64,000 bases of DNA from Clostridia bacterium (GCA_017456985.1 JAFTIH010000027.1:1575-65574); one strand, 5' to 3'; positions 3,217 through 35,564 are shown, counted from the stretch's first letter. The notes: generated by a model not told the origin, from the sequence alone. A program made the numbers and translations.

Positions 3217-3246
3217 TCTTTTTCCCCCTCGGAAAACGGAGGAACT

Positions 3247-13125: not shown

Positions 13126-13154
13126 TTGATTTTATGAAAGAATTATTATATAAT
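13126..13154 (+). promoter_or_regulatory. Sigma-70-type promoter of the vWA/tubulin-like operon
   Basis: TTGATT (13126-13131), a 17 nt spacer, then TATAAT (13149-13154). This predicts a ~140 nt GC-rich leader before ATG 13300. Confidence 0.55.
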
Positions 13155-19300: not shown

Positions 19301-20216
19301 CCACGACCTCGAGCTCGAGGCGGACAAGAAGATGGTCAAGGCGCTCCTTTACGCGCTTCTCAACGGCGAGCTTTCCTTTAAGAAGGAATACGGCGACGTC
19401 GCGTTCCGTTACGACGGAGAGAAGATCGTGGGTGACGGCAGATTCGTGGATGACAACAATCTCGTCGGACTGATCTCCTGGCTCCGTCCGCAGGACGATA
19501 AGATCGAGCGCTGGAGCGAGGCGTTTGACCGCGAGGTCGAGGAGCAGCTTGCATCGCTGCCCTCCGCAGGCTTCGTCCACCAGATCGGCAAGGCGAAGAC
19601 GGCACTGACGCTGACGAAGTATCTGAAGATGCTCCGCCGCAACGTCTTTGAAAGCCTCTTCAAGACGGCGGGTAAGGAGAAGGGAAGTGCCGAGGACGAG
19701 AAGAAGTATGCAAAGCTGAAAAAGAAGCTGAACATGAACATCTTCGAGTTCGCTTACCGCATCAAGACGGAAGAGGAAGGGCATTACGGCTACGACTGTA
19801 ACGACGCAGAGAAGATCTTGCGCGTTGTCAGCGACCTGCTTTGGGAGATGTGCGAGCGCGTCATTTCCAGCGACAAGGATCAGTTCAAGGAGGTTTACGA
19901 GTGGGAGCTCGACTACTTCATTGCTGAGATGTACTTTGACGAGGATATGCCCGAGGACGAGGCAGACCGCGTCGCTGTGATGAAGACGATGCTGCACTTT
20001 GCAAACCGTGCAGACAGCTTTATGGAGATCGTTCCCTCCAAGGATCCCAGCAAGAAGTGGGAAAAGAAGGACTACAATCTCTCGGAATTTCTCGAAAAGC
20101 GGATCTCCGCGCTTGACCGCGTTGCGAAAAACAGAGCAAAGAGCGAGGGCGTGGATGAGGGCGAAGCCGACGAGGGTAGAGCTGACGAGCTTCCCCTCGA
20201 TGCCGCCGAGGTATGA
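16374..20216 (+). CDS. Giant tubulin/FtsZ-superfamily GTPase-like protein (Tubulin_2-type N-terminal domain plus ~900 aa helical extension), paralog 1
   Basis: ILILGVGGTGSRAVN at the N-terminus (T1-like loop). GGTGSG signature at nt 16806-16823. GAGQWRKQSYLAF motif. Acidic C-terminal tail EGVDEGEADEGRADELPLDAAEV. SD AAAGGAA upstream. Confidence 0.75.
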   Translation: MKSILILGVGGTGSRAVNLLQKKISRMGQNEETKIVSIVFDTNAADEKNIDAASVISLSENATVGMVRNRLGAQCNEWFPNDHKYDENNLSIGAGQWRKQSYLAFLNAMNDAIRRNELDNALQKLVDQTQSNFSIDIYTVASLAGGTGSGTFIPLTLYVKKRLRQLFPNATVRARAMLACPDIYEAKQNGDRMNITSIYANAYAILRELNGINQVVYGLNGADYDSGKGEVAGRGRTPVSFRLGSEQSPVGVLFDSKDKKYHSPTAAPFERVCLMEKIVNVTSVAAHDEAMANILYSLICTKAGGELDGIWSNEEKKRAGETGHNCMYAGIGSSEIQYPVDTLLEYFAWRKTRDDAEGEWLVLHNATEAQISEKRKLAKEMRKEYHLTTEDYAKLFLDAQKAEERTETSSVTELVHSAIRYYEKENGTETLKYVFTEYWDRLQQSFRSLIPDHKAIASRIATLDPVQRPGIFSSKSTKESAAQQVCDNAEQVYLRLNDYYQMAVDTIRSQVNVCADAILPLDTKKDPCANLGLSFTQNVLARDGSFIHPVAAMVQLCTLRLAIADTLAGMNSAEWKDLSSFDVGKLPMNLLGCTSDLSALGLGGRASRSAYLKKDRTRLASILSESGKEEYVKQKTDYEADCAAVLKDGDMILTRLANEAYEMLLKRVLGVIADRVNTMIESYRSFFRRFTEQKARLSDRVKRVEVERTGSSDTSCIYVGASVESRRRHYERLLEESMSGTTESNNIAGRGVFAISYQMACAKRFRGEDDIKVDTTGVFTAMYEANKVAIRKSDYFHEIASKTVLEVIADENVGRESEVGKKIMITAYEMAKPALRVIENGMQKEQAVVLVPDAMEEYLEANTHIFDLSVGGGDARACTDDLLGRWCQKALVRQEESVPANTIYICRALMSVDSIDIIKVNEKNLEDGYYKYYLETVRMAGSDRSKCADGSGYSDDSKLPHLGFNWHKRGYLPLINHDLELEADKKMVKALLYALLNGELSFKKEYGDVAFRYDGEKIVGDGRFVDDNNLVGLISWLRPQDDKIERWSEAFDREVEEQLASLPSAGFVHQIGKAKTALTLTKYLKMLRRNVFESLFKTAGKEKGSAEDEKKYAKLKKKLNMNIFEFAYRIKTEEEGHYGYDCNDAEKILRVVSDLLWEMCERVISSDKDQFKEVYEWELDYFIAEMYFDEDMPEDEADRVAVMKTMLHFANRADSFMEIVPSKDPSKKWEKKDYNLSEFLEKRISALDRVAKNRAKSEGVDEGEADEGRADELPLDAAEV

Positions 20217-20287: not shown

Positions 20288-23200
20288 ATGAAGAGTGTCC
20301 TCATTCTTGGCGTCGGTGGTACCGGTAGCCGCGCAGTCAATATGCTGCAAAAGAAAATTCTCAGAATGGGCAAGCAGGACGACGTCAACATCGTTTCCGC
20401 CGTATTGGATACCAACGCGGCAGACGAGAAAAACATCGATACTGCGACCATCGTGTCCCTTTCTGACAACGTGACCGTTAAGACGGTCCGTGAGCGTCTC
20501 GGTGCTTCCGTGGATGACTTTTTCCCCAAGGACTCGCTGTTTGACAGCAACAACATCTCCATCGGCGCAGGTCAGTGGAGAAAGCAGTCCTACCTTGCGT
20601 TCCTCAACGCGATGGCAGGCAGACAGAAAAACAATCTTGACAGCGCCCTCGAAAAGCTGGCTGACAAGTCCTCCCCCTCCATCTCGATCGACGTTTATAC
20701 CGTCGCGTCGTTAGCAGGCGGTACGGGCTCGGGCTCCTTTATCCCGCTGACGCTGTACGTCAAGAAGCGCATCCGTGAGATCTTCGGTGCCAAGACCACC
20801 ATTCACGCAAAGGCAATGCTCGCCTGCCCCGATATCTACGAGGGCAAGCAGAACGATCCGCTGAATATCACGAGCATCTATGCAAACGCATATGCGATCC
20901 TTCGTGAGCTCAACGCCATCAACCAGGTCGTTTACGGCTTGAATTCCGCAAATTATGACGACGGCAGCGGCGAGTTCGCACGCGCAGGCCGTACGCCCGT
21001 GCGCTTCCATATCGGTACGAAGGACAGCCCCGTTGGCGTTCTGTTCGATTCCCAGGATCCCGCATACCATACGCCCGAGGCAGCTCCCTTTGAGCGTGTT
21101 TGTATGATGGAGAAGATCACGGGTGTGTCCTCTATCATCGCACACGACGAGGCGCTTGCCAACACGCTGTACTCCCTCATCTGCACCAAGGCAGGCGGCG
21201 AGCTTGATTCCATCTGGTCCAACGAGGAAAAGAAGCGTGCCAACGAAACGGGTCACAACTGCATGTACGCAGGTATCGGCTCCTCGGAGATCCAGTATCC
21301 TATCGACGAGATGATGGAATACTTTGCATGGCGTAAGACCCAGGCGGATGCCGAGGGTGCTTGGCTTGCTCTGCACAACGCCACCGAAGCCCAGATCGCG
21401 GAAAAACGCCGTCTTGCCAAGGAAATGCGCAAGGACTTCCATATGACCGTCAAGGACTACGCGAAGTTCTTTACTGATGCCCAGAAGGCAGAGGCACGCA
21501 CCGAGACCTGCAACGTGACCGAGCTGATCCGCTCCTCCGTTATGCGCGAGGTCGAGCGCGGTGACAGCATCGAAATGGTCAGCATTCTTGCCGAGTATTG
21601 GGACGGCATCAAGGAGGCTCTTGCCGACCTCGTTCCCGATCACAAGCCCGCAGCAGGCAAGATTGCATCCCTTGACCCCGTAGAGAACCCCGGTCTGTTC
21701 GGCGGCAAAGCAGAGAAAGAGGGCAAGGCACAGGCAATCTGTGACAATGCTTCCCAGGCGTATAGCACGATGAACAAGTACTATCACGACGCCGTAGAAG
21801 CGATCAACACCCAGATCGACGTTACGACCGACGCCATCCTTCCCATCGATACCAAGAAGGACCCCGAGGCAAACCTCAAGCTCTCCTTCGCAAGAAACGT
21901 TTTACAGCGTGACGGCTTCTACATCCATCCCGTTGCCGCTATGGTACAGCTTTGTACCTTCCGTCTGATGCTGCAAGAGGAGCTTTCCGCTCTGACGGGC
22001 AGCGAGTGGAAGGATGTCGGCTCGTACGAGATCGGCAAGCTTCCCGCAAGCCTGCTTTCCTGCACGGAAGACCTCGATACGCTGGGTCTTGGCGGCAAGG
22101 CAAGCAAGAGCTTCTATCTTAAGGGCGGCAGATCGCGTTTCACCTCTCTGCTTGGCGATACCGCTGCTGACGCTTTCAAGAACCAGAAGACGGATTATGC
22201 AACCGACAGCGAGGCACTTCTCAAGGATGCCGATATGCTTCTGACCAAGCTCCACAACGAGGCGAGCGAGATGCTTTTGCGCCGCGTGATCGAAAAGCTT
22301 GGCGAGCGCATCGACGCTCTGATCGAGAGCTACCGTTCCTTCTTTGGCCGTTTTGCTGAGCAGAAGGACCGCCTTGTCGATAAGGTCAAGAGAGCGGAAG
22401 AGGACAAGGCAAAGAACGCCGACACCTCTTGCGTTTACGTGGGTGCGTCCATCGCACAGCGTCAGCGCCACTACGAGCTTCTGATGGAAGAGAGCATGAC
22501 CGACGAGCGCGAGGGCAACAGCGTTGCCGGCGAGAGCGTGTTCGGCATCTCCTACAAGATGGCTTGCGCAAAGAAGGGCAACGCCGCAGAGGAAGAGCGT
22601 GTTGACGCTACGGGCGTCTTTGACGCGATGAAGAAGGCAAACCTCGTACAGCTTTCCAAGACCGACTACTGCGTCGCACTGCGTGCAAGAAACGTCTTTG
22701 AGGTGCTCGCAGAGGAGAACCGCGGTCACGAGTATGAGGCAGGTAAGACGGCAGTTCAGACGGCTTACGAAATGGCAAAGCCCGCCCTTCAGGTCGCTAC
22801 GGGCGGTCAGCATAAGAATCAGGCAGTCGTTCTCGCGCCCAAGAGCGTTGAGGAATATCTGCAGAAGAATACCGATCGCTTCGGCATTTCGATCAGTGCC
22901 GCTTGCACGGACGACTTGGTCACCAGATGGTGCCCCGAGTCCTTCGTCCGCATTGAGGACACCGTACCGCGCAACACCATTTTCATCTGCCGCGCACTGA
23001 TGAGCGTCAACTCGGTTGACATCGTGAAGGTCAACGAGAAGAGCGGTGAGGACGGCTACTACAAGCGTTATCTGGAAGCAGTCCGCATCGGTGAGGAGCA
23101 GAAGAACGACAGTATGTTCCCGCACCTTGGCTTTAACTGGCACAAGCGCGGTTACCTGCCCTTCATCAACCCCGACCTTGAGGCAGAGGCAGACAAGAAG

Positions 23201-24052
23201 ATGATCAAGGCGCTCCTTTACGCCATTATGAACGGCGAGATCACCTTCAGCGTGCAGTACTCCGACAAGGCGTTCCGTTACGGCAACGATAAGATCGTTG
23301 GCGACGGCAAGTTCGTGGACGAGAACAACCTGCTCGGACTGATCGCTTGGCTGCGTCCTCAGGACGACAAGATCGAAAAGTGGTGCGCAGAGTTCGACCG
23401 CAACGTGGAGGATCAGCTCAAGGTCCTTCCCAAGACGGGCTTTGTACACGAGATCCCCGCCGCAAAGGCAAAGCTGACCACCACCAAGTACCTGCGTATG
23501 TTCCGTAAAAACATCTTCGAGACCATTATGGAGAATAGCTCCGGCTCCGCTCAGACCGTGATGAAGAAGGATCTGAATATGAGCCTGTTCGAGTTCGCTT
23601 ACCGTATCAAGGTCGAGGAAGAGAGCCGCGGCGGCTACGACTGCAACGACGCTGAGAAGATCCTCAAGGTCGTCAGCGACCTGCTTTGGGAGCTCTGCGA
23701 GCGCGTTGTCAGCAGCGAGAACGACCAGTTCCAAGAGGTTTATCAGTGGGAGCTTGACTACTTCATTGCCGAGCTTTACTGCGACGACGATATGCCCGAA
23801 AAGAGCGCAGGCGACGTGGCAAGAACGATGCTCCAGTTTGCAAACCGTGCAGGCTGCTTTATGGAGATCAGCCCCTCGACCGATCCCGCAAAGGGCAAGT
23901 GGGAGAAGAGACCCTTCGACCTCAACGCCTTCCAGAGAGACCGCATGAACGCTTGCGTTAGCCGTGTGATGGCAAGCAAGGGCGGCAAGGCACCCGCAGA
24001 GGATGCTCCCGCGACCGAGGCGCCCGCAACCGAGGCACCTGTCGAAGAATAA
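20288..24052 (+). CDS. Giant tubulin/FtsZ-superfamily GTPase-like protein, paralog 2
   Basis: Collinear with 16374-20216 over its whole length. It has the same GVGGTGS, GGTGSG (nt 20717-20734) and GAGQWRKQSYLAF motifs. Acidic/Pro-rich tail APAEDAPATEAPATEAPVEE. SD GAAGGAGA upstream. Confidence 0.75.
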   Translation: MKSVLILGVGGTGSRAVNMLQKKILRMGKQDDVNIVSAVLDTNAADEKNIDTATIVSLSDNVTVKTVRERLGASVDDFFPKDSLFDSNNISIGAGQWRKQSYLAFLNAMAGRQKNNLDSALEKLADKSSPSISIDVYTVASLAGGTGSGSFIPLTLYVKKRIREIFGAKTTIHAKAMLACPDIYEGKQNDPLNITSIYANAYAILRELNAINQVVYGLNSANYDDGSGEFARAGRTPVRFHIGTKDSPVGVLFDSQDPAYHTPEAAPFERVCMMEKITGVSSIIAHDEALANTLYSLICTKAGGELDSIWSNEEKKRANETGHNCMYAGIGSSEIQYPIDEMMEYFAWRKTQADAEGAWLALHNATEAQIAEKRRLAKEMRKDFHMTVKDYAKFFTDAQKAEARTETCNVTELIRSSVMREVERGDSIEMVSILAEYWDGIKEALADLVPDHKPAAGKIASLDPVENPGLFGGKAEKEGKAQAICDNASQAYSTMNKYYHDAVEAINTQIDVTTDAILPIDTKKDPEANLKLSFARNVLQRDGFYIHPVAAMVQLCTFRLMLQEELSALTGSEWKDVGSYEIGKLPASLLSCTEDLDTLGLGGKASKSFYLKGGRSRFTSLLGDTAADAFKNQKTDYATDSEALLKDADMLLTKLHNEASEMLLRRVIEKLGERIDALIESYRSFFGRFAEQKDRLVDKVKRAEEDKAKNADTSCVYVGASIAQRQRHYELLMEESMTDEREGNSVAGESVFGISYKMACAKKGNAAEEERVDATGVFDAMKKANLVQLSKTDYCVALRARNVFEVLAEENRGHEYEAGKTAVQTAYEMAKPALQVATGGQHKNQAVVLAPKSVEEYLQKNTDRFGISISAACTDDLVTRWCPESFVRIEDTVPRNTIFICRALMSVNSVDIVKVNEKSGEDGYYKRYLEAVRIGEEQKNDSMFPHLGFNWHKRGYLPFINPDLEAEADKKMIKALLYAIMNGEITFSVQYSDKAFRYGNDKIVGDGKFVDENNLLGLIAWLRPQDDKIEKWCAEFDRNVEDQLKVLPKTGFVHEIPAAKAKLTTTKYLRMFRKNIFETIMENSSGSAQTVMKKDLNMSLFEFAYRIKVEEESRGGYDCNDAEKILKVVSDLLWELCERVVSSENDQFQEVYQWELDYFIAELYCDDDMPEKSAGDVARTMLQFANRAGCFMEISPSTDPAKGKWEKRPFDLNAFQRDRMNACVSRVMASKGGKAPAEDAPATEAPATEAPVEE

Positions 24053-24157
24053 TTCCCGGCGGGTTGTCCGCCAAAAATTTCCCGATGCCCTATACGGGCA
24101 TCGGGACCCCCAAAGGGGCGCCGCAAGGACGCCCGATCAAAGAAAGGGTTGAAACCG

Positions 24158-26179
24158 ATGTTAACCTATGTGATCAATACGTCTGAGAATAAGGTTTTGA
24201 AGAGTGAGATTCTTTTCGATCTTGTCGGATATAACAAGATCGAATGGATGCGCAGCGGACTTTCTGCCGTCGCGGACTGCACCGATGAGATCATTCGCCG
24301 TCAACAGCCTATGACCGCGGAGGAATACCGCGTGGTGGTGCTCGTTGACTTTTTGGCGTTTGAAAAGACGCTGTTTCCCGAAGAAAATCCGGTCAGCGAA
24401 TATCTGACGATTTACAGAAAGCTGATTGAAATATATCTTTATAACCATCTTTATATGCCGCTTCGCCGTGCCAAGCTCGGCTTTGAGGGGCTTGAGGTGT
24501 TCTATATTCAATACACCGAGAAGAACACCATCCGCGAAAACGCGGCGGAGAAGATGCACTTAGCCCAGCTTTTAGAGCTTTCCGAGGAGGAGATCGAGCG
24601 CGCGGCGGGCAAGGTGGACGAGGAGAAGAAGGACGCGGAGGAAAGCGCCCCCAAATCTGCGCGCGCAAAAGCCAAAAAGCAGGAAGAAGAGGAGCCGACC
24701 GAGACGAAGACGCCCGCGCAGGTGTACGACGTCTTCAAGGTCGCGTACCGCGACGGGGAGTTTTTCTTCCGTGCCGAGGATTTCTGCAAGAATACCAAGG
24801 CGGGAGAGTCGGTGACCTTTGACACCTTCTACCGCAATTTTGGCGAAAACCACGTAAACGCGTACCGCGCCTTCGGCGCCCGCTCGCGCACCTACGTAGC
24901 GGAGGCGGCGTCTGCAAGACTTGAAAGCCGCGCCGCGTTCGATAACTTGAATTTGTCGCTCGCCCTCATCCGTGCTTACGAGCAGGATATGAAGTTTGAG
25001 GACGCGACGGAGAGCGACGACGTTTTGGACATCCCCAAGATGAACAAGGAAGCGTTCTTCCGTGTGATCCAAAAGGCATACGGCAAGGTGAAAAACGCCC
25101 TTGAGCTCGTCCGTCAGAGCGGAAAAGCCAACGGCTTCTACCGCTTGGAAACGCCCACCTCCGTGTCTGCGGATATTTGCCGCGACACCCTGACGGATGA
25201 AGAGCGGACGGAGATCAGCTCCCAAGCCAAGGGGAAGGACATCAAGGATCAGTTTGCCGAGATCCGCCGCTACGCCGCGACCAAGGCGGGAGAGAAGAGC
25301 GACGACGAGCGCAAGAAGCTGACCCAATATATGAGCGCTTACAAAACGGAGCGCGATAAGATCCGCAACCACACGACGGAGCAGGACGTCAAGATGATGC
25401 TCCGCGACGCGAAAAAGCAGGACAAGTACCCCTCGGGTTTAGAATATGAAAACGCGGTCGAGAAGAAAAAATCGACGATGCGCACCATTTTGAAGCACGC
25501 GATCAACGCCGACTACAAGGGCACCGATTACGAGGAAGAGATGAAGGACGCCAACGAGGTCTATGACGGCTACCTGCGCGCCAAGGCAATGCTTGCGAAG
25601 AATTTCCGCACGCACGTCGTTTGCCTGCTTCTCGTTCTCGTGGCGATGATCGTTCCGTACGTCGTGTTGCAGAGCACGGATTTTTCCCGCGTGGGCGCGA
25701 TCCTGCTCGCTTCGATCGCCGTCGCGATCTTCAGCGGCGTGTACATTTTTTCAGCCTTCGTCCACATCATTCCTCTTATGCGGCAGATCACGGCGGCGAA
25801 GATCAGAATGACGGACATCTATGCCAAGTGCCTTTGCAAGCGCGCTGAGGCGATGCTTGCCCTGCGCCATCGCTACGAGCTGTACCTGCCCGCCGTGGAG
25901 CAGATCTACTACGAGCTTTACACGCTTGAGGTCCTGCACAATGCTAACCGCGAGATCAATCGCCATATCGAGGAGCACAGAGAGATGCTCGAATGCCTGC
26001 GCGACGTTCTTCTCGGTATGCTCAACAGTATGCAGGTCACGCACAGAGCGACGGAGGACGTGGCGCTCGACGAGGACGAATTCCTCATCGGCGAGTCCAT
26101 CCGTGCCAACAGTATTTATAAAGTCTTTACGCTTGACGTGATCGAAGAGATCTTTGGAGAGGGAGGTATGAGAATATGA
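24158..26179 (+). CDS. Membrane protein of unknown function: N-terminal globular domain, charged K/E-rich helical region, two TM helices
   Basis: I prefer ATG 24158 (SD AAAGAAAGGG) over TTG 24149. Highly charged region EEEIERAAGKVDEEKKDAEESAPKSARAKAKKQEEEEP. Hydrophobic helices VVCLLLVLVAMIVPYVVL and VGAILLASIAVAIFSGVYIFSAFVHIIPL. I recognise no family. Confidence 0.6.
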   Translation: MLTYVINTSENKVLKSEILFDLVGYNKIEWMRSGLSAVADCTDEIIRRQQPMTAEEYRVVVLVDFLAFEKTLFPEENPVSEYLTIYRKLIEIYLYNHLYMPLRRAKLGFEGLEVFYIQYTEKNTIRENAAEKMHLAQLLELSEEEIERAAGKVDEEKKDAEESAPKSARAKAKKQEEEEPTETKTPAQVYDVFKVAYRDGEFFFRAEDFCKNTKAGESVTFDTFYRNFGENHVNAYRAFGARSRTYVAEAASARLESRAAFDNLNLSLALIRAYEQDMKFEDATESDDVLDIPKMNKEAFFRVIQKAYGKVKNALELVRQSGKANGFYRLETPTSVSADICRDTLTDEERTEISSQAKGKDIKDQFAEIRRYAATKAGEKSDDERKKLTQYMSAYKTERDKIRNHTTEQDVKMMLRDAKKQDKYPSGLEYENAVEKKKSTMRTILKHAINADYKGTDYEEEMKDANEVYDGYLRAKAMLAKNFRTHVVCLLLVLVAMIVPYVVLQSTDFSRVGAILLASIAVAIFSGVYIFSAFVHIIPLMRQITAAKIRMTDIYAKCLCKRAEAMLALRHRYELYLPAVEQIYYELYTLEVLHNANREINRHIEEHREMLECLRDVLLGMLNSMQVTHRATEDVALDEDEFLIGESIRANSIYKVFTLDVIEEIFGEGGMRI

Positions 26180-29100
26180 CGGTTTTAAAGATCGTATTTA
26201 TCGTCGTATCGCTTTTGCTCCTGTTCTTCCCCCTCTTGCCGCTTCCTATGAAGCTGCGCAAGTTCTCCACCTTCCGCAAGCTGCGCTACGACGCGCCTCA
26301 CAACCGTGTGAACGCGGCGTTTATTCTCTTGACCATCCTTGAATTCGTGGCGATCGCCATCGTTTACAGCGCGATCTTTACGCTGGCGATCAAGATCGCC
26401 TCCGTTCCCTTTATCGCGAGCCTTTTGCAGAAATTCTCGGACACGGTGGCGTTCAACAGCAACGTGCTCTTCCGCGTGCTGCTTCTCAACATCGTCACCC
26501 TTTACGCCTTCCTTATCCTGAAAGCCATCGTCAAGGGCTTCTTGAACGTGCTGTTCGGCTTTACCAAGAAGAAGGCAAAGAAAAAGAAGAAAAAGGAAGC
26601 GGAGGAAGCGACGGCTGACGAAAAGCCCGCAAAGCGGAAAAAGAAGCCCGGCCGCATCTCCTATTTCTTCCGTCCCCGCCGTAAGAAAAAGACGGACGAG
26701 GAGGACGAGGAGCCCTCTGCACAGGACGAAAAGCCGACCGAGCGTGTGGTTACGGCAAAGAACGAGAAGTTCAAGAAGGAACACCCCATTCTTTTCCGTA
26801 TGTATCAGAAATTCTGGGGACTGTTCTTTGAGGGTCCCGATTTCTACCACGCAAAGCGCTTCGTTTCGTCTGCAGTTTCCGCGATCCAGTTCTTTATCTA
26901 TCTGGTCGAGATCCTTTACGCGATCTTGTTCCTCTTGATGCTTCTCGCCGTATTTTTCCCGCTTCCTTCGTTCTTCTACGGCGTGCTCAACTGGATGACG
27001 ATCAAGACCTACATCTATCCCTTCGTGTCGCTTTTGCTGTTGCAGGAGATCTGCAACACCTTCCGCGCACCTTGCAAGGAGATCGAGCCCGTAGAGGAAA
27101 CCTACGAGAAGGAGATCGAAGAGGTCGAACAGCAGAAGAAGATCGCGCTTGACAAGCTGCGCAACGATATTCTTCGCCGCTTTGCCAAGAATCACAGCAT
27201 CCGCTTCTTCCCCGCAACGGATGCGAAGGAAATGTCCGAGTATCACGTGACGAGCAAGGTCTATCAGGACGCCCTCACGTATATCGGCACCTATATGAAA
27301 GAGAACTACGGACGCGTGGTGCAGAGCTATATGAGCGGTCTTGACGCCGTGTTCAACGACCGTCACGTGTATTTCGGCTCCTCCTTCTATTCTCAGCTTG
27401 GCGAATACATCATCACCTATACTTATATCCGCCTGCTTTCGGGACAGAGAATGATCTTTATCGTTTCCGACCGCTCGCAGGTCGTGAAGCTGCAGCAGTA
27501 TATCGGTAACCGCCTGACGGATATCACGGGCGTGACGCGCGAGGAGACCTGGCGCGTTTACAGTGCCGACTCGCATCACGTCAACGAAGCGGACGTTCTC
27601 GTGGGTGTTCCCGAGGACTTTGCGACGGATAACCTGGTTGAAAACTACCCCGCCTTCTTCGAAGAGGTGTGCAACGCCGTCTTCGTGGATGCGGACAGCA
27701 TTTTGAATCTCAACAGCTACCTTTGCACCATTATGGCGTGCCGCCTGCTTTCGGCGACCGAGCAAAAGATCCGTTTCCTTTTCCTCTCGCGCGACGTCCT
27801 GCAGGGCTTCTCCGCGTCCTTGCGCAAGTTCTTCTGCATCGACGAGGAGATCGTGGACTGCAACAGCGCCGAGGAAAACGAAAACGTTTCCTATATGCTT
27901 TGGAACCGTGAGTGCAACTCGCTTTACAACAAGAACGGACAGAGCGAGACCACGATCGAGTGCCTCGTCGCGGAAGCGGCTTACAGCGCGGACGTGGACG
28001 GCATCCGTATTCTGACGAGCGTACCCCTTAAGCCTGCCGAGAAGCAGAACTTCCTAGCACACGACGTGGAGATCAACGAGTTCCATAAGAAGGTGCCGCG
28101 CGTCAACTATATGATCTGCACCGATGACCGCTGCAACCTTGCCGCCGCCATCTATGCGTACACGCGTTTCCACGGCAGAGAAGCCTCGATCGTGCATATT
28201 CTCAGCCGTCCCTATCTGCTTCGCGAATACTTCGGCGACCGCGTTGAGCTGTACGTCAATCGCTCCGATCTGATCAAGCCCCGCGCGACCGAGCACGCAG
28301 ACACCAAGAAGCTGCTCCTTCTGCGCCTCGTTTGCGAAGCCACCTCAAGCCCGAGCGGCATTCCGCTCTCCGTCTTCACCGAGAAGGTGGATGCCATTAT
28401 GACGGAGCGTGGCTGTGCGCCCGCCTTCGACCTTTCCGCCCGCGTCGCTTACGTGCTCAGCGAGCTGATGAGCGACTCCACTCTCATCGAGAAGACGGAA
28501 GAGGAAAAGAGCGACGGAACGCTTACCTACTATACCAAGGCGAAGAAGCCCGTTTATACCTACTTTATCGTGCTCCAGCCCGAGCGTAAGGACGGCTACA
28601 CGTTGAAGAACGAAAACGGCATCACCTTCCTTTGCCTTGAACGCATCTTTGATAAGCTTCTTGCCAACAACCGCCGCGTGGAGCTCGTTCTGCACGGCTC
28701 GGTGATCGGCACGCTGGAAACCTTCCCCGAGCGCGTTTATCAGCAGTACGTTCCCGGTCAATACATCATTTTTGACAACCACGAGTATGAAATTGAGAAG
28801 ATCTCGGATGACCGTACCGTCATTTATTTAAGACAGGAGAACATCACCAACAACTCTTGTCTTGATACGGCATTCCTTCGCCATTACGAGGTGCGCCGCC
28901 GTCACGACGACGAGCATTTCCTGCACGGCGAAAAGGAATACAGCGCAGGACAGCTTTTGAAGATCGAAACGGTCGTACAAAACGCAAGCATCCTGGGCGA
29001 GACGTACGGTACGTACCGACTGATGGCAGACAGCCAGACGCTCAACTTCAAGGATCTTGTGGGCGGTAACTTCCGCCTTGCGGACAGCGTCATCAAGAAG

Positions 29101-31647
29101 CAGGCAAGAAAGTTAGACAACGGACGCGTCTTGACCGTCCGCCTGACGGCAAACGAGCCCTGCGACGACGGCGTCAGGCGCCTGCTTGCCGCTGTGCTCA
29201 ACGAATTTCTGCGCACGATGTTCCCCGAGACCTACCGTTGCGTTGCGGTCTGTCCCGTGCTCCGCACGCCCCTTTCCAAGGAAAAGGGTGAGGCGGCTAC
29301 CGACTTTAACAGCCGCGTGGAATCCTTGTATCCTTATCTGCTTTGCTGTGAGGATGAAGACGGCGCTTCGGGTACCAAGGACAACGTCTGCGAATTTCTG
29401 ATCATCAACGACGCGCACGAGGACGTGGGTATCCTCGACCGTCTGTACGACGGCAGTGCGCGCATTATGGAGGAGATCTTCTCCTACATTTACGACTACC
29501 TTATCTGGCTCAAATCCAAGCCCACGCTTCCCGAGGGGGATGCGCACTACATCTACTTCGGTAGCGACACGCTTCCCGAGGTTTATGCACTGGATGAGAG
29601 CATCGCGCTCCTTGCCAACTGTGCAAGAGAGTTCGGTGTGCTGGAGGACGAGGAAGAGGTCGAAAAGCCCACGCACTGCTCCTTCTGTAAGAAGCCGCTC
29701 GTGACGGGTCGCTACGCGATCTACGACGAGAACCGCTACATCTGCTTTGACTGTCAGGTGGAAAGCATCAGCGATGAGGACGCTTTGGAAAAGACGGTGA
29801 GCGCAGTGGAAGCCTATTGGAAGGAAGCCTTCCCGCTCGTACCCCTTCCCGAGGGTGTCAGCTTTGATCTTGCCGATCCCTTCTCGCTGGAGGAAGGACA
29901 GGATCAGACGGAGTACTTCTACCGTCTGCATTATGAGGACAGACGCGTCGATATTGAATGCGACCTTCCCGAGAAGAGCGTATTCGCCGCCGTTTTGCGT
30001 GCGTATATGGCAGTTTACCATCGCGACGGCAATATCGTGACCCCTGCGGCAGAGGCACAGCTTTACTTTGAGGAGCTGCGTTATCTTGACACCGTCGGCG
30101 CCGCAGAGCGCGCCGCCTACGTGCGTGAGCAGATCCCCGATTGGATGGCTCCTATCCTTGACGAGATGAAGGCGTACGTCGGTGACGGCGCAGAGGGTAA
30201 GACCTCCTTTGACTACGTAGCGGAGAATTCCGTTCCCGAGGAGCCCGAGGAAATCGTTCCTACGCCGGGCGACGACGAAAACGGCACCGACAACTCGGAT
30301 GCTCTGTACGATCCCGACCGTGTACCGCGCTTCTGGAAGCGCTATTTGCGCGGCAAGCAAGCCAGCGATGACGACACAGATGAGGACGCTCTGCCCGCAG
30401 ATGCCGAGGACGGCGATGCGGCAGACGAGGGCGCCGAGGACGTGGCAGAAACGGGTGCCGAGGATGCGGGTGCAAAGCCCAAGAAGAAGGGCAAGCTCTC
30501 CAAGCTCAAAACGGGTGAGGAGCTCATCCCCTACGAGGCAGAGGAAAAGACCAACCCCGAGATCCGTCTTTACAACCGTTTTGCCCGCGCGATCGCCGAT
30601 TTCAGCGATCAGCCCATCCCTTGTGAGGGTATGTCGCTTGCGACGGTCAACAAGATCTACTACCTCGTGCTTTACGATTATCCCGAGTTCTTTTGGGTGG
30701 AGAACGGTTATCGCTACAACCACGACGGCAAGGGTCACGTCAATAGCCTCTTGCTTTCCTTCCGTTGCCTTGGCAGTGACGGCAAGATCGACATTGCCCG
30801 TGTGCAGAAGTACAGACGCGAGCTGCGTGCCAGCGTGAAATTCTTCACCAAGGGCATCACGCGCAAGACGAGCCCCTACGACGCACTGCTTACCATCTAC
30901 CGTCGCCTGATCCTCAACCTCGACTACGACGGTGTGGGACTTGATGGCGGTGCAGGCAGAAGCGTGCGCGACGAGGATACGCTCCGTTCGCTTCACAGCG
31001 CTCTCGTAGAGCGCAAGGTCGTTTGCCAGGGCTACGCCGTGGCGATGCAGTACCTGTTGCAATCGGTTGGTATTTGTTGCGGTCAGGTCGTCAGCCAGAC
31101 GCACTCTTGGAACGTCGTTAAGATCGACAAGCAGTGCTACTTCCTGGATGCAACCTGGGGCGACAACTCCAACACCAAGACGGGTGAGGATTATAAGAAC
31201 GTCGTTGGCTATGAATACTTCTGCGTTCCCGCCAAGGAAAACCTGCTTGGCGAAAAGGCAGAGGTTCGTATGCCCGACCCCAATATCTTCGTGGGACTTG
31301 AGGAGTTCCGCGCAACGAAGCACGAATATGCGCGTTTCCACGGCGGCTACCTGACCTCGTACGACGTGGACCAGATCGCCGCGGCATTCGCCAAGGCGGC
31401 GACCGCCCGTCCCTTCGAGAAGGAGCGACCCAGCGTGATGTTCCGTTGCCGCGACGTTGCTGTGTTCCGTATGGTTCAGGATTATCTGTTCAAGGGACGC
31501 GGCTGGCAGACGGCAATGCAAAAGGCGCAAGCCATCGTTGCCGAGGACGGCAAGAACAAGCGTGCGCAAAAGCTGCTTTCGGGCGGTATCTCCTGGTGGT
31601 ACAGCGAAAAGCATCTGACGCTGACCATCTTCTTCACGGAAGAATAA
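26176..31647 (+). CDS. 1823 aa polytopic membrane protein with a zinc ribbon and a C-terminal transglutaminase-like (Cys-His-Asp) domain
   Basis: ATGA overlap with the upstream gene. At least 5 N-terminal hydrophobic helices split by a poly-K/E linker (KKKAKKKKKKEAEE). HCSFCKK...ICFDCQ zinc ribbon at nt 29672-29757. Acidic disordered stretch. Core VCQGYAVAMQYLL (Cys codon 31024-31026), THSWNVV (His 31102-31104) and FLDATWGD (Asp 31147-31149). Confidence 0.75.
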   Translation: MTVLKIVFIVVSLLLLFFPLLPLPMKLRKFSTFRKLRYDAPHNRVNAAFILLTILEFVAIAIVYSAIFTLAIKIASVPFIASLLQKFSDTVAFNSNVLFRVLLLNIVTLYAFLILKAIVKGFLNVLFGFTKKKAKKKKKKEAEEATADEKPAKRKKKPGRISYFFRPRRKKKTDEEDEEPSAQDEKPTERVVTAKNEKFKKEHPILFRMYQKFWGLFFEGPDFYHAKRFVSSAVSAIQFFIYLVEILYAILFLLMLLAVFFPLPSFFYGVLNWMTIKTYIYPFVSLLLLQEICNTFRAPCKEIEPVEETYEKEIEEVEQQKKIALDKLRNDILRRFAKNHSIRFFPATDAKEMSEYHVTSKVYQDALTYIGTYMKENYGRVVQSYMSGLDAVFNDRHVYFGSSFYSQLGEYIITYTYIRLLSGQRMIFIVSDRSQVVKLQQYIGNRLTDITGVTREETWRVYSADSHHVNEADVLVGVPEDFATDNLVENYPAFFEEVCNAVFVDADSILNLNSYLCTIMACRLLSATEQKIRFLFLSRDVLQGFSASLRKFFCIDEEIVDCNSAEENENVSYMLWNRECNSLYNKNGQSETTIECLVAEAAYSADVDGIRILTSVPLKPAEKQNFLAHDVEINEFHKKVPRVNYMICTDDRCNLAAAIYAYTRFHGREASIVHILSRPYLLREYFGDRVELYVNRSDLIKPRATEHADTKKLLLLRLVCEATSSPSGIPLSVFTEKVDAIMTERGCAPAFDLSARVAYVLSELMSDSTLIEKTEEEKSDGTLTYYTKAKKPVYTYFIVLQPERKDGYTLKNENGITFLCLERIFDKLLANNRRVELVLHGSVIGTLETFPERVYQQYVPGQYIIFDNHEYEIEKISDDRTVIYLRQENITNNSCLDTAFLRHYEVRRRHDDEHFLHGEKEYSAGQLLKIETVVQNASILGETYGTYRLMADSQTLNFKDLVGGNFRLADSVIKKQARKLDNGRVLTVRLTANEPCDDGVRRLLAAVLNEFLRTMFPETYRCVAVCPVLRTPLSKEKGEAATDFNSRVESLYPYLLCCEDEDGASGTKDNVCEFLIINDAHEDVGILDRLYDGSARIMEEIFSYIYDYLIWLKSKPTLPEGDAHYIYFGSDTLPEVYALDESIALLANCAREFGVLEDEEEVEKPTHCSFCKKPLVTGRYAIYDENRYICFDCQVESISDEDALEKTVSAVEAYWKEAFPLVPLPEGVSFDLADPFSLEEGQDQTEYFYRLHYEDRRVDIECDLPEKSVFAAVLRAYMAVYHRDGNIVTPAAEAQLYFEELRYLDTVGAAERAAYVREQIPDWMAPILDEMKAYVGDGAEGKTSFDYVAENSVPEEPEEIVPTPGDDENGTDNSDALYDPDRVPRFWKRYLRGKQASDDDTDEDALPADAEDGDAADEGAEDVAETGAEDAGAKPKKKGKLSKLKTGEELIPYEAEEKTNPEIRLYNRFARAIADFSDQPIPCEGMSLATVNKIYYLVLYDYPEFFWVENGYRYNHDGKGHVNSLLLSFRCLGSDGKIDIARVQKYRRELRASVKFFTKGITRKTSPYDALLTIYRRLILNLDYDGVGLDGGAGRSVRDEDTLRSLHSALVERKVVCQGYAVAMQYLLQSVGICCGQVVSQTHSWNVVKIDKQCYFLDATWGDNSNTKTGEDYKNVVGYEYFCVPAKENLLGEKAEVRMPDPNIFVGLEEFRATKHEYARFHGGYLTSYDVDQIAAAFAKAATARPFEKERPSVMFRCRDVAVFRMVQDYLFKGRGWQTAMQKAQAIVAEDGKNKRAQKLLSGGISWWYSEKHLTLTIFFTEE

Positions 31648-31662
31648 CGCCTAAAATAAAAG

Positions 31663-31693
31663 AAAATGCCATCCCGCGAGGGATGGCATTTTT
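31663..31693. terminator. Bidirectional intrinsic terminator between convergent operons
   Basis: Stem AATGCCATCCC / GGGATGGCATT with a GCGA loop, flanked by an A-run and a T-run. Confidence 0.85.
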
Positions 31694-35396: not shown

Positions 35397-35564
35397 GAGA
35401 TCACCTCTTTCTTGTGTGTCGTGGGATTGACTTTTGGGGAAAAGACTGGTATAATCATAGAAGAGCGCCCTCTTTTCCACCACCTTCTATTATACCAAAA
35501 ATCAGAAGTGGGGTCAAGTGGCGCACCGAAAAAAGATGCAATTTGTGAAAGGCAGGAAACGTAT

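What the first reader, a model, noticed from the sequence alone, without database searches (positions are those of the whole stretch)
26176..31647. 1823 aa mosaic membrane protein: TM bundle, poly-K/E linker, possible degenerate helicase-like region, zinc ribbon, acidic IDR, transglutaminase-like core
Seen directly:
- At least five hydrophobic helices, split by an extremely charged linker (KKKAKKKKKKEAEEATADEKPAKRKKKPG...).
- A CxxC-x20-CxxC ribbon (HCSFCKK...ICFDCQ, nt 29672-29757).
- A D/E-rich stretch (DDDTDEDALPADAEDGDAADEGAEDVAETGAED).
- A C-terminal core with Cys (CQGYA), His (HSWN) and Asp (DATWG), in the order and spacing typical of transglutaminase-like cysteine peptidases.

Residues ~330-700 look like two alpha/beta lobes with a VDAD motif where helicases have DEAD. 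I see no Walker A motif there, so an inactivated helicase-like module is only a weak guess.

The ATGA start/stop overlap with the 673 aa membrane protein gene suggests translational coupling and a stoichiometric complex.
Basis: partly seen in the sequence, partly recalled or inferred. Interest (0 to 1): 0.65.

Follow-up and report, generated by a model that had tools for sequence, protein, structure and literature searches.

The report
Membrane-anchored dead helicase carrying thiol peptidase
This giant membrane protein from an uncultured gut Clostridium has a helicase skeleton that has lost its ATP-burning residues, carries a papain-like (transglutaminase-fold) enzyme on a flexible tether, and is the last gene of a conserved operon with two bacterial tubulin relatives whose role has been unresolved since 2010.

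Summary
Tools add four points.

1. Residues ~340-1150 fold with high confidence (pLDDT 86.7) like the MrfA/YprA DUF1998 DNA helicase (Foldseek E 2e-22). There is no Walker A GKT and no catalytic Glu (VDAD), here or in any of 191 relatives, so it is an old pseudo-helicase.
2. After the invariant C4 zinc ribbon comes a dead zincin domain. Relatives have HELTHxW at this position; this protein has RAYMA.
3. The C-terminal ~370 aa are homologous end to end to S. pyogenes TglA (PDB 9CRN, profile E 4.5e-29). Cys1617, His1643 and Asp1658 are invariant.
4. In 17 loci this module is a separate downstream gene without a signal peptide, so it is cytoplasmic.

The gene closes a conserved cassette: extracellular vWA protein, FtsZl1/Tubulin_2 (two copies), a 2-TM protein, then this protein. 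[quoted passage not shown]

Best reading: a membrane-proximal proteolytic output subunit on an ATPase-dead scaffold. It is a new variant of a known, uncharacterised family. Substrate and biological role (conflict system or membrane remodelling) are unresolved.

The parts
26176..31647 (+). Whole ORF, 1823 aa (B12-type subunit)
   Evidence: 83 homologues of 34-99% identity; 465 representative clusters.
26182..26541 (+). TM1-TM3 (aa 3-23, 47-69, 98-122), with a K/R-rich cytoplasmic loop at aa 24-46
   Evidence: Hydropathy and positive-inside counts across 84 sequences. The N-out orientation is inferred.
26542..26859 (+). Poly-K/E cytoplasmic linker (aa 123-228)
   Evidence: Family medians are 28 K/R and 26 D/E in ~109 aa. 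Composition is conserved; sequence is not.
26860..27054 (+). TM4-TM5 hairpin (aa 229-261, 273-293)
27091..27195 (+). Long stalk helix leaving the membrane (aa 306-340)
   Evidence: AlphaFold helix at model residues 7-41.
27196..27870 (+). RecA1-like lobe (aa ~341-565). Dead motif I is HVYF-GSSFYSQ-LGEY, the motif Ib-like stretch is VLVGVPEDF, motif II is VDAD and motif III is LSRD.
   Evidence: AlphaFold secondary structure. Foldseek matches to MrfA and other SF2 helicases. Motif state in the family. Boundaries are approximate.
27871..28290 (+). RecA2-like lobe (aa ~566-705), with the motif VI-like YTRFHGRE and the family signature PYLLREYF
   Evidence: Boundaries are approximate.
28291..29625 (+). 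Helicase accessory region (aa ~706-1150): a helical domain, a beta-rich OB/CON-like part and an alpha/beta MZB-like part
   Evidence: The Foldseek alignment to MrfA spans ~895 columns at E 2e-22, against 1e-8 for the next helicases. MrfA domain order comes from PMC7797055. Sub-boundaries are approximate.
29674..29757 (+). C4 zinc ribbon (C1168, C1171, C1190, C1193)
   Evidence: Present in 82 of 84 sequences. Weak ClpX zf-C4 similarity.
29773..30210 (+). Dead zincin (DUF6782-like) domain, aa ~1200-1345. HExxH is replaced by RAYMA and EGH by EAQ.
   Evidence: Alignment with relatives that carry HELTHxW. DUF6782 hit in P0109 at 28 bits, cutoff 27. Weak selecase and IrrE fold hits.
30304..30351 (+). 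Conserved linear motif LYDPxxxPRFWKRYLRG (aa 1377-1392), flanked by disorder
   Evidence: Near-invariant in this clade. Kept on the scaffold protein in split forms.
30358..30516 (+). Disordered tether: an acidic stretch (aa ~1398-1432), then a basic stretch (aa 1434-1445)
   Evidence: pLDDT below 50. The gene fission point lies between the acidic and basic halves.
30523..31644 (+). TglA-type transglutaminase-fold domain (aa ~1450-1823). C1617 is nt 31024-31026, H1643 is nt 31102-31104 and D1658 is nt 31147-31149.
   Evidence: Profile vs PDB 9crn_A, E 4.5e-29. Foldseek to 9crn, E 2.4e-13, TM 0.67. Triad invariant in 69 of 69. Pfam and NCBIfam hits.
13300..16344 (+). Operon gene 1: signal peptide, extracellular vWA domain (MIDAS DNSGSMQG), beta-rich repeats, one TM helix and a cytoplasmic tail
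   Evidence: Translation. Weak VWA Pfam hits. Homology to a VWA_2 protein in the same position in L060, E 1e-16.
16374..20216 (+). Operon gene 2: FtsZl1/Tubulin_2 GTPase, 1280 aa, with intact T1 (GVGGTGSR) and T4 (GGTGSG) loops
   Evidence: Pfam PF13809, E 2.7e-36. Motifs.
20288..24052 (+). Operon gene 3: second FtsZl1/Tubulin_2 GTPase, 1254 aa, 61% identical to gene 2
24158..26179 (+). Operon gene 4 (B5-type): ~500 aa cytoplasmic part, 2 TM helices and a ~130 aa tail. Its stop overlaps the start of the target gene (ATGA).
   Evidence: Conserved directly upstream in all loci with enough sequence. The B5 label comes from the 2010 supplement.
13126..13154 (+). Promoter-like site upstream of gene 1 (TTGATT-17-TATAAT)
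   Evidence: This is a consensus match only.
31662..31693 (.). 14-bp-stem hairpin with T runs on both strands: a likely bidirectional terminator closing the operon

Best explanation
The gene encodes the terminal, catalytic output subunit of a five-gene envelope-spanning module. The module consists of an extracellular vWA protein, two FtsZl1/Tubulin_2 GTPases, a 2-TM 'B5' protein and this 'B12-type' protein.

Architecture:
- Five TM helices (N-terminus out, C-terminus in) anchor a ~1500-aa cytoplasmic body.
- The core of that body has the MrfA/YprA helicase layout (RecA1, RecA2, helical, OB/CON-like, MZB-like, then a C4 zinc ribbon).
- It has lost the Walker A lysine and the motif II glutamate, so it most likely cannot hydrolyse ATP. 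It probably acts as a rigid scaffold or adaptor.
- Next come a zincin domain whose HExxH is destroyed, a conserved PRFWKRYL peptide, and an acidic-then-basic disordered tether.
- Last is a TglA-type transglutaminase-fold domain with an intact Cys-His-Asp triad. This is the only catalytic centre left.

Inferred mechanism: the tethered thiol enzyme works as a peptidase or amidase on a cytoplasmic partner close to the membrane. It would be positioned, and probably gated, by the dead-helicase scaffold together with B5, the tubulin-like GTPase assembly and the surface vWA protein.

Status of each step:
- Shown: domain architecture, loss of the ATPase and zincin motifs, conservation of the triad, obligatory linkage of all parts, and the gene fission.
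- Inferred: topology, hydrolase rather than cross-linking chemistry, gating, and substrate.
For: Fold and motifs:
- The AlphaFold model of aa 300-1200 has pLDDT 86.7 and pTM 0.86.
- The top Foldseek hits are all MrfA structures: E 2e-22 over ~895 columns, target-normalised TM-score (TMt) 0.5-0.6. The next helicases score 1e-8.
- Motif I, beta1-loop-alpha1, reads HVYF-GSSFYSQ-LGEY, and motif II reads VDAD.
- A subfamily only 25% identical has the same dead motifs.
- No [GA]xxGxGK[ST] lies in the helicase region of any of the 191 family proteins of 1000 aa or more, and no DExH/D lies at motif II.

Transglutaminase-like domain:
- Family profile vs 9crn_A: E 4.5e-29 over ~340 residues.
- Foldseek to 9crn: E 2.4e-13.
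- The triad is invariant in 69 of 69.
- Transglut_core hits 20 of 24 members.

Obligatory partnership (loci L001-L059):
- The module is fused in 38 loci and is the next gene in 17.
- In the other 4 loci the contig ends first.

Cytoplasmic location:
- The stand-alone forms have K-rich N-termini with no signal peptide or TM helix.
- Positive-inside counts agree.
- The partner tubulin-like proteins have no signal peptide.

Peptidase logic:
- Relatives carry an intact HELTHxW zincin (DUF6782) at the position where this protein has a dead copy.
- Of 27 proteins with a fused transglutaminase-like domain, 25 have lost HExxH.
- Cassettes with a zincin and no transglutaminase-like gene also exist.

Cassette:
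- The vWA, Tubulin_2, B5, B12 order is conserved.
- It was listed in the 2010 supplement.

A published analogue pairs vWA, an NTPase and a membrane-linked transglutaminase-like peptidase. This is the MoxR-vWA-YebA system, predicted to be a membrane-proximal degradation system (PMC3495828).
Against: - There is no experimental datum on any member of this family or on FtsZl1.
- The Cys-His-Asp triad is shared by peptidases, transglutaminases, deamidases and N-glycanases, so the chemistry is not fixed by sequence.
- No function was found for TglA in the searchable literature.
- Three proteins or loci keep both an active HExxH and a transglutaminase-like module (P0107, P0110, L061). The two are therefore not simply interchangeable.
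- Triad geometry could not be measured.
- Topology rests on hydropathy and charge rules, not on a dedicated predictor.
- A helicase fold without ATPase motifs could still bind nucleic acid, which would change the model.
Confidence: 0.5

Rival explanations
1. Same molecule, specific role: the cassette is an NTP-dependent biological conflict (anti-phage or abortive) system. The surface vWA protein senses an invader. The tubulin-like GTPases polymerise as a threshold device. This protein is the effector, whose peptidase then cleaves host or invader proteins.
For: - Kaur et al. 2020 classify Firmicute systems with two tubulin plus coiled-coil genes and an extracellular TM-vWA protein as conflict systems. 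They list transglutaminase-like thiol peptidases among effectors.
- YprA-type helicases are central to DISARM, Dpd and Druantia.
- The C-terminal module varies across the family: zincin, transglutaminase-like domain, DUF6273.
- One MAG carries two paralogous cassettes (L004 and L007).
- Some relatives sit next to a TIR-NB-ARC-TPR gene (L060), a D5 primase (L064) or an integrase (L062).
Against: - No PADLOC model hits any of the five proteins.
- The DO-GTPase, GAP1-N2 and FNIII components that define the Kaur systems were not detected here.
- The flanks in the window and in L001 and L003 are housekeeping genes.
- There is no compositional anomaly.
- No relatives occur on IMG/VR viral contigs.
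- The helicase is dead, unlike defensive YprA proteins.
Confidence: 0.3
2. Same molecule, different role: the cassette is a constitutive cytoskeletal or membrane-remodelling machine, as Makarova and Koonin proposed in 2010. It might act in envelope morphogenesis or sporulation. This protein would be the membrane anchor that matures or turns over the FtsZl1 filaments.
For: - The original genome-context inference.
- Chromosomal housekeeping neighbourhoods and stable gene order across Clostridia and Bacilli.
- Carriers are spore formers: sigF operon, SplA and Cse60 genes lie nearby.
- Three of the five proteins are membrane proteins.
Against: - The distribution is patchy: 56 loci among 185,579 species representatives.
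- The cassette is duplicated within one genome.
- The output domain is variable.
- There is no link to known division or sporulation genes beyond loose proximity.
Confidence: 0.2
3. The C-terminal domain is a true transglutaminase. It would cross-link Gln and Lys residues, for example to lock tubulin-like filaments or partner proteins to the membrane complex.
For: - The same Cys-His-Asp triad supports transamidation.
- Lys-rich segments are abundant in the protein and in the stand-alone module's N-terminus.
- S. suis 'TGase' (4xz7) is a weaker structural neighbour.
Against: - The domain sits where relatives have a metallopeptidase, and that peptidase decays when the transglutaminase-like domain is fused. 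This argues for hydrolysis.
- Published surveys note that active versions of this fold include peptidases, N-glycanases, transglutaminases and deamidases, and they predict the membrane-linked bacterial versions to be peptidases.
Confidence: 0.12
4. The protein is an active DNA helicase or repair factor working with the adjacent SbcCD-like genes.
For: - The fold matches the DNA-repair helicase MrfA.
- SbcC- and SbcD-like genes lie immediately downstream.
Against: - Walker A and the catalytic Glu are absent in the whole family.
- SbcCD is on the opposite strand, beyond a terminator.
- SbcCD is not next to the gene in the other loci with called genes.
- The protein is membrane-anchored and always linked to tubulin-like genes.
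Confidence: 0.02
5. The transglutaminase-like domain is extracellular, like the mycoplasma MAG6410 lipoproteins, and modifies the cell surface.
For: - The best NCBIfam hit is a lipoprotein family.
- TM5 is only weakly hydrophobic.
Against: - Stand-alone versions lack any signal peptide.
- Positive-inside counts favour a cytoplasmic location.
- The C4 zinc ribbon and free catalytic Cys fit the cytoplasm.
- The tubulin-like partners are cytoplasmic.
Confidence: 0.05

Closest known systems
[quoted passage not shown]
   Same: - N-terminal TM region and C4 zinc ribbon.
- Last position in the cassette vWA, FtsZl1, B5, B12, with a start/stop overlap with B5.
- HExxH-bearing relatives of the window protein found here (e.g. 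P0109, E 6.6e-70) sit in exactly that context.
   Different: - The window protein's zincin is dead.
- A TglA-type thiol-enzyme domain is fused on an acidic tether.
- The tubulin gene is duplicated.
- The 2010 work did not recognise the ~800-aa helicase-fold core or any transglutaminase link.
MrfA/YprA (DUF1998) SF2 helicases: B. subtilis MrfA (PDB 6ZNP/6ZNQ/6ZNS), DISARM DrmA, Druantia DruE
   Same: The overall fold and order of domains, including the accessory region, followed by a four-Cys zinc site. MrfA is by far the best structural match.
   Different: - No Walker A, no DExH and no detectable sequence similarity.
- Membrane-anchored.
- The zinc site is a CxxC-x18-CxxC ribbon after the MZB-like domain rather than closely spaced Cys inside it.
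- Not linked to nucleases or methylases.
- Absent from the 2025 YprA survey.
Streptococcus pyogenes TglA (PDB 9CRN), a transglutaminase-like domain protein
   Same: Homologous over the whole ~340-370 aa module, including the helical parts before and after the catalytic core. The motifs are the same: VCxGYA, HxWN, DxTWGD.
   Different: - TglA is a stand-alone 379-aa protein.
- Here the module is tethered to, or encoded next to, a membrane scaffold.
- No function for TglA was found in the searchable literature.
MoxR-vWA-YebA operon (Zhang and Aravind 2012), a predicted membrane-proximal protein-degradation system
   Same: The same combination of parts: a vWA protein, an NTPase, and a polytopic membrane protein with a cytoplasmic transglutaminase-like thiol peptidase.
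   Different: - The NTPase here is a tubulin-superfamily GTPase, not a MoxR AAA+ ATPase.
- The vWA domain is extracellular.
- The transglutaminase-like domain is of TglA type, at the end of a dead helicase rather than in a TM7-TM8 loop.
DO-GTPase/GAP1-N2 tubulin-vWA conflict systems of Firmicutes (Kaur et al. 2020)
   Same: Two tubulin plus coiled-coil genes and an extracellular TM-vWA protein. Membrane-proximal, with variable peptidase-type outputs.
   Different: - The defining DO-GTPase, GAP1-N2 and FNIII genes were not detected in this cassette.
- B12-type proteins are not described there.
Vasohibin-SVBP tubulin carboxypeptidases (eukaryotes)
   Same: A transglutaminase-fold thiol peptidase functionally tied to a tubulin-superfamily polymer. 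This is an analogy only.
   Different: - No detectable homology beyond the superfamily fold.
- The triad differs (Cys-His-Ser in vasohibins).
- No evidence here that FtsZl1 is the substrate.

Membership tests
Transglutaminase-like superfamily (Pfam PF01841), TglA type | Profile match at or above the curated threshold | tested here: met
   The window protein alone scores 21.6 bits against a 23-bit cutoff. Twenty of 24 family members hit, with a best E of 1.7e-8 and 35 bits. The family profile hits 9crn_A at E 4.5e-29.
Transglutaminase-like superfamily (Pfam PF01841), TglA type | Cys, His and Asp in this order on the papain-like core | tested here: met
   C1617, H1643 and D1658 are invariant in 69 of 69. 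They align with VCNGYA, HAWN and DVTWGD of 9CRN.
Transglutaminase-like superfamily (Pfam PF01841), TglA type | Papain-like alpha+beta fold | tested here: met
   The model has pLDDT 86. Foldseek to 9crn gives E 2.4e-13 and TM 0.67. Other TGase and cysteine-protease structures come next.
Transglutaminase-like superfamily (Pfam PF01841), TglA type | Triad side chains within catalytic distance; enzymatic activity | not testable with these tools
   Model coordinates are not exposed. No assay is possible.
MrfA/YprA DUF1998 helicase family | Domain layout RecA1, RecA2, WH, OB, CON, MZB | tested here: met
   Foldseek gives E 2e-22 over ~895 columns to 6znp, 6znq and 6zns, 14 orders of magnitude better than other SF2 helicases.
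MrfA/YprA DUF1998 helicase family | Walker A (motif I, GxGKT) | tested here: not met
   The loop between beta1 and alpha1 reads GSSFYSQ. None of the 191 relatives has the motif there.
MrfA/YprA DUF1998 helicase family | Motif II DExH with the catalytic Glu | tested here: not met
   The sequence is VDAD. Position 506 is Ala, Ser, Thr, Val or Cys across the family. The distant subfamily has CDVDK.
MrfA/YprA DUF1998 helicase family | DUF1998 four-Cys zinc cluster inside the MZB domain | tested here: inconclusive
   An invariant C4 site exists. However, it is a CxxC-x18-CxxC ribbon after the MZB-like domain and resembles the ClpX zf-C4 weakly. Equivalence could not be checked without coordinates.
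MrfA/YprA DUF1998 helicase family | Sequence-level match to DEAD, Helicase_C or DUF1998 profiles, or to helicases in the PDB | tested here: not met
   No such Pfam hit in 24 members at E up to 1. No helicase appears in the PDB profile search at E up to 10.
B12 component of vWA/FtsZl1 operons (Makarova and Koonin 2010) | Membrane association plus Zn finger | tested here: met
B12 component of vWA/FtsZl1 operons (Makarova and Koonin 2010) | Active zincin (HExxH) | tested here: not met
   The homologous domain is present, but HELTH is replaced by RAYMA and EGH by EAQ. Among the >=1000-aa hits of the representative search, 53 carry the HE[L]THxW motif.
B12 component of vWA/FtsZl1 operons (Makarova and Koonin 2010) | Position after vWA, FtsZl1 and B5 in one operon | tested here: met
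   Published layout.
B12 component of vWA/FtsZl1 operons (Makarova and Koonin 2010) | Direct homology to RUMLAC_01526 or BACCAP_04121 | not tested
Membership is inferred from HExxH relatives of the same size and context.
Known anti-phage defence systems (PADLOC-DB v2) | Match of any cassette protein to a defence-system model | tested here: not met
   No hit for the five cassette proteins at E up to 0.01. Only the neighbouring SbcC-like gene hits generic ABC-ATPase models.
DO-GTPase/GAP1-N2 tubulin conflict systems (Kaur et al. 2020) | DO-GTPase, GAP1-N2 and FNIII-repeat genes in the neighbourhood | tested here: inconclusive
   No GTPase or FNIII gene lies in the 13.1-31.7 kb operon. The B5-type gene could be a GAP1 relative: B5 follows the GTPase in C. 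kluyveri. No profile hit supports this.

The most novel reading that the evidence does not exclude
The tethered transglutaminase-fold enzyme trims or otherwise modifies the acidic C-terminal tails of the co-encoded bacterial tubulin homologues. The ATPase-dead YprA ring and the poly-K linker would serve as the filament- or tail-binding adaptor. This would be a prokaryotic counterpart of vasohibin-type tubulin tail processing, and the first known 'tubulin code' enzyme outside eukaryotes. It would also be the first example of a DNA-helicase chassis converted into a membrane-bound cytoskeleton adaptor.
Probability: 0.1. Interest if true: 0.85.

Novelty: new variant of a known kind. Interest (0 to 1): 0.6.

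Why it matters
FtsZl1/Tubulin_2 proteins are the most divergent branch of the tubulin superfamily. Fifteen years after their description, no paper found in the searches run here reports an experimentally tested function for them.

This analysis gives the least understood partner in their operons a concrete anatomy:
- a YprA-type helicase skeleton that lost catalysis before the family diversified;
- a membrane anchor;
- one or two peptidase-type output domains (a zincin, a TglA-type thiol enzyme, or both).

That anatomy turns a string of hypothetical proteins into a testable model of a membrane-proximal, tubulin-linked proteolytic switch. It also offers point mutants (C1617A) and a natural split form for biochemistry.

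It links two published and conflicting views of these operons: membrane remodelling and conflict system. It also extends the YprA helicase family, currently seen as a DNA-repair and defence motor, to a non-motor scaffold role.

Tried and rejected
- Pfam, NCBIfam and PADLOC scans of the whole protein gave nothing for aa 1-1550.
- A Pfam scan of 24 family members at E up to 1 gave no helicase or DUF1998 hit.
- Profile searches against PDB sequences found no helicase. The helicase relationship is visible only at fold level.
- The search for relatives on IMG/VR viral contigs found none.
- Five literature searches for S. pyogenes TglA or 9CRN found no paper. No function can be transferred from the closest solved structure.
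- In one search my query for the C-terminal module was one base out of frame and gave spurious hits to alternative-frame ORFs. This was corrected.
- My first Walker A regular expression would have missed AxxGxGKT. I redid it with the same negative result.
- I considered a functional link to the adjacent SbcCD-like genes and rejected it. They are on the opposite strand beyond a terminator, and they are not adjacent in the other loci with called genes.
- I considered C996, C1022 and C1026 as a remnant DUF1998 cluster and rejected it, because they are not conserved.
Triad distances and domain-by-domain superposition could not be done.


Full report
**1. The observation**

The window holds an uninterrupted ATG-started ORF at 26176-31647 on the + strand, encoding 1823 aa.

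- Hydropathy finds helices at aa 3-23, 47-69 and 98-122, and then at aa 229-261 and 273-293.
- A 106-aa linker with 30 K/R and 16 D/E separates the two groups.
- The zinc ribbon is C1168-x2-C1171-x18-C1190-x2-C1193 (nt 29674-29757 for H1167-Q1194). The spacing is 18 residues, not 20.
- The start codon overlaps the stop of the upstream gene as ATGA.

The gene is conserved. A word-indexed search found 83 homologues of 1056-2170 aa, 34-99% identical and all unnamed. A profile search of 1.84 billion representatives found 465 clusters at E<=1e-3.

In an alignment of 84 sequences:
- the four ribbon cysteines are present in 82;
- D505 and D507 of VDAD are present in 80;
- C1617, H1643 and D1658 are present in all 69 that carry the C-terminal domain.

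**2. The middle region is a dead MrfA/YprA-type helicase**

An AlphaFold2 model of aa 300-1200, built on a 54-sequence alignment, has mean pLDDT 86.7 and pTM 0.86.

- Foldseek against the PDB puts the four B. subtilis MrfA structures first: 6znp, 6znq and 6zns, E 2e-22 to 7e-14, ~825-895 aligned columns, target-normalised TM-score (TMt) 0.5-0.6.
- Ski2, Hel308, Pol-theta and RecQ helicases follow only at about 1e-8.
- A gap of 14 orders of magnitude means the accessory domains match too, not just the two RecA lobes.
- MrfA is built as RecA1, RecA2, WH, OB, CON and MZB (PMC7797055). The same order is called characteristic of the YprA family in a 2025 survey.

Reading the model's secondary structure against the sequence:
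- strand beta1 (HVYF), the loop (GSSFYSQ) and helix alpha1 (LGEY...) occupy the place of motif I, but there is no GKT;
- VLVGVPEDF looks like motif Ib;
- AVFVDADS occupies motif II, with Ala in place of the catalytic Glu;
- FLFLSRD occupies motif III;
- YTRFHGRE resembles motif VI.

A second subfamily, only 25% identical (L052-L054, L058), has the same state: DTVLYSALGDY and CDVDK. No [GA]xxGxGK[ST] motif lies in the helicase region, and no DExH/D lies at the motif II position, in any of 191 family proteins of at least 1000 aa.

At sequence level there is no detectable relation to helicases. There is no DEAD, Helicase_C or DUF1998 hit in 24 members at E<=1, and no helicase in a PDB profile search at E<=10.

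The module therefore has the helicase fold, most likely descends from that lineage, and fails the defining catalytic features. It is a pseudo-helicase, and the loss predates the split of the subfamilies. The replaced motif I loop is strongly conserved ([YF]S-x-[LIFV]-G-[ED]-Y) in the Transglut-fused clades and many other relatives, as is PYLLREYF. This suggests a new binding function.

**3.

The broader family consists mostly of ~1250-1320-aa proteins with the same N-terminal TM region, pseudo-helicase and zinc ribbon. They are followed by a short C-terminal domain carrying HELTHxW...EGH.

- Pfam recognises this domain as DUF6782, a putative metallopeptidase (P0109: 28 bits, cutoff 27). There are weaker BSP, M78 and M1 hits.
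- Aligning that region shows that window residues ~1200-1345 are the same domain with the metal ligands gone. HELTH has become RAYMA and EGH has become EAQ; the neighbouring WQxDN motif is kept in close relatives.
- Weak fold hits of the second model to selecase, IrrE and aminopeptidase N fit a zincin fold.

**4. The C-terminal domain is a TglA-type transglutaminase-fold enzyme, and it is cytoplasmic**

- The family profile matches PDB chain 9crn_A ('Transglutaminase-like domain-containing protein', S. pyogenes TglA) at E 4.5e-29 over ~340 positions.
- The single sequence matches at 2.4e-11, with VCQGYA/VCNGYA, HSWN/HAWN and DATWGD/DVTWGD aligned.
- The AlphaFold model of aa 1150-1823 (pLDDT 86.0, pTM 0.82) matches 9crn at Foldseek E 2.4e-13 and TM 0.67. 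Other TGase and cysteine-protease structures follow.
- Transglut_core hits 20 of 24 members.
- Residues 1359-1375 and 1402-1442 are predicted disordered.

Among loci L001-L059, the module is fused in 38 and encoded by the immediately downstream gene (~400 aa) in 17. In the remaining 4 the contig ends first. It is therefore an obligatory partner in this clade.

The stand-alone proteins begin with hydrophilic, K-rich N-termini and have no signal peptide or TM helix. In split forms the scaffold keeps the conserved PRFWKRYL motif and ends in the acidic tail. The fission point thus lies exactly between the acidic (aa ~1398-1432) and basic (aa 1434-1445) halves of the tether.

Several observations argue for an N-out, five-TM topology with the whole body, including the thiol-enzyme domain, in the cytoplasm:
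- positive-inside counts, with loop 24-46 at a median of 6.5 K/R, the linker at 28, and 9 just after TM5;
- the C4 zinc site;
- the cytoplasmic tubulin-like partners.

This is an inference. No dedicated topology predictor was available.

**5. Context**

The gene is the last of a five-gene operon. A promoter-like site lies at 13126-13154 and a 14-bp-stem bidirectional terminator hairpin at 31662-31693. Gene spacings are 29, 71, ~100 and -4 nt.

- Gene 1 (13300-16344) has a signal peptide, a vWA domain with the MIDAS motif DNSGSMQG, beta-rich repeats, one TM helix and a cytoplasmic tail.
- Genes 2 and 3 are 61%-identical FtsZl1/Tubulin_2 proteins of 1280 and 1254 aa. Their T1 and T4 GTP-binding loops are intact and their C-terminal ends are acidic.
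- Gene 4 has ~500 cytoplasmic residues, two TM helices and a helical tail.

The order Tubulin_2, Tubulin_2, gene 4, gene 5 recurs in loci from 56 GTDB species representatives. All are uncultured gut Clostridia: Oscillospiraceae, Christensenellaceae, Lachnospiraceae and others.

HExxH-type relatives sit in the shorter cassette vWA, Tubulin_2, ~700-aa protein, B12-type protein, also in Bacilli-like genomes.

The flanks differ between genomes and are housekeeping genes in the window and in several loci. The GC content of the operon matches its flanks. The SbcCD-like pair downstream is convergent and is not next to the gene in the other loci with called genes.

**6. What was already known**

- Makarova and Koonin (2010) defined FtsZl1 and its vWA-containing operons and proposed a membrane-remodelling machine.
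[quoted passage not shown] It lists the same layout in 'Bacteroides' capillosus.
- Neither helicase nor transglutaminase is mentioned there.
- Kaur et al. (2020) reinterpret Firmicute tubulin/vWA neighbourhoods, with DO-GTPase, GAP1-N2 and FNIII genes, as NTP-dependent conflict systems. Those defining genes were not found here.
- Zhang and Aravind (2012) predicted that the MoxR-vWA-YebA operon is a membrane-proximal degradation system, in which a membrane-linked transglutaminase-like domain is the peptidase. This is the closest functional analogue.
- The 2025 YprA-family survey has no tubulin-, TM- or transglutaminase-linked branch.

**7. Mechanism**

Shown:
- a membrane-anchored protein whose helicase and zincin catalytic residues are gone;
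- a thiol triad that is invariant;
- strict genetic linkage to a vWA surface protein, tubulin-like GTPases and a 2-TM protein;
- a conserved start/stop overlap with the latter.

Inferred:
- the dead helicase is a scaffold or adaptor;
- the tethered thiol enzyme is the output;
- it acts as a hydrolase.

The main argument for hydrolysis is the distribution of the two peptidase-type domains among the >=1000-aa hits of the representative search:
- 51 relatives have an active zincin and no fused thiol domain;
- 25 have the fused thiol domain and a decayed zincin;
- only 2 (plus one locus with a separate gene) keep both.

Zincin-only cassettes also exist. This looks like partial functional displacement of one peptidase by another. 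It does not prove it, because the two coexist in a few cases.

I put the following confidences on the separate steps:
- architecture: about 0.9;
- cytoplasmic location: about 0.8;
- hydrolase rather than cross-linker: about 0.55;
- any specific substrate: below 0.25.

Whether the module serves defence (about 0.3) or cell morphogenesis (about 0.2) is open. A few relatives neighbour TIR-STAND, primase or integrase genes. However, no PADLOC model hits and no viral contig carries a relative.

**8. Verdict**

The protein is a new variant of a previously listed but uncharacterised family. Its zincin is dead, it carries a transglutaminase-fold enzyme, and its cassette has two tubulin genes. The main new recognition is that the family's core is an ATPase-dead YprA/MrfA helicase fold.

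Noticed in passing
window 16374-20216 and 20288-24052: The two FtsZl1/Tubulin_2 genes are tandem paralogues, 61% identical over their full length, and both end in acidic tails. In Christensenellaceae loci the pair is unequal (~1320 and ~920 aa). HExxH-type cassettes have a single copy.
   Followed up: partly
L052-L054 and L058 (e.g. L053:2719-14251): A second subfamily, ~25% identical, has the same TM, dead helicase, Zn ribbon and transglutaminase-like layout. It sits in a cassette with one Tubulin_2 gene and a different 766-aa 2-TM protein that is only faintly similar to gene 4.
   Followed up: partly
L004 and L007 (both from Oscillospiraceae MAG SIG648): One MAG carries two complete paralogous cassettes on different contigs.
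   Followed up: no
P0112 (1461 aa): This family member has, in place of the zincin or transglutaminase-like domain, a long EEKEERKRKLEEE repeat followed by a DUF6273 domain (E 5e-29). This is a third type of C-terminal module.
   Followed up: no
L060:13851-19866: Downstream of an HExxH-type cassette lie an AAA (AAA_lid_6) ATPase, an unknown 644-aa protein and a TIR-NB-ARC-TPR (STAND) protein, which is a typical immune-type gene.
   Followed up: no
window 24080-24106: A perfect 11-bp-stem GC-rich hairpin lies in the ~100-nt gap between tubulin gene 3 and gene 4. The scan scored it as a terminator on the minus strand, so it may be an intra-operon RNA element.
   Followed up: no
window 581-2845 and 3208-5547: Two tandem paralogous genes encode an unusual fusion of HTH (XRE type), a cupin domain and an AMP-binding (acyl-CoA synthetase-like) enzyme.
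   Followed up: no
window 31702-35483 (minus strand): An SbcC-like (864 aa) and SbcD/Mre11-like (396 aa) pair converges on the operon. The ATPase hits PADLOC mad3 and LmuB models (E 1e-16, 1.5e-11), probably through generic SMC/ABC similarity.
   Followed up: partly
window 24158-26179 vs the 2010 supplement: The family label B5 is used both for the gene upstream of B12 in R. lactaris and for the gene following the novel GTPase in C. kluyveri. Gene 4 may therefore be related to the 'GAP1' proteins of Kaur et al. 2020. No profile hit supports this yet.
   Followed up: partly
window 40075-41043 (minus strand): A 322-aa ORF overlaps the start of polA by 4 nt and has no Pfam match.
   Followed up: no
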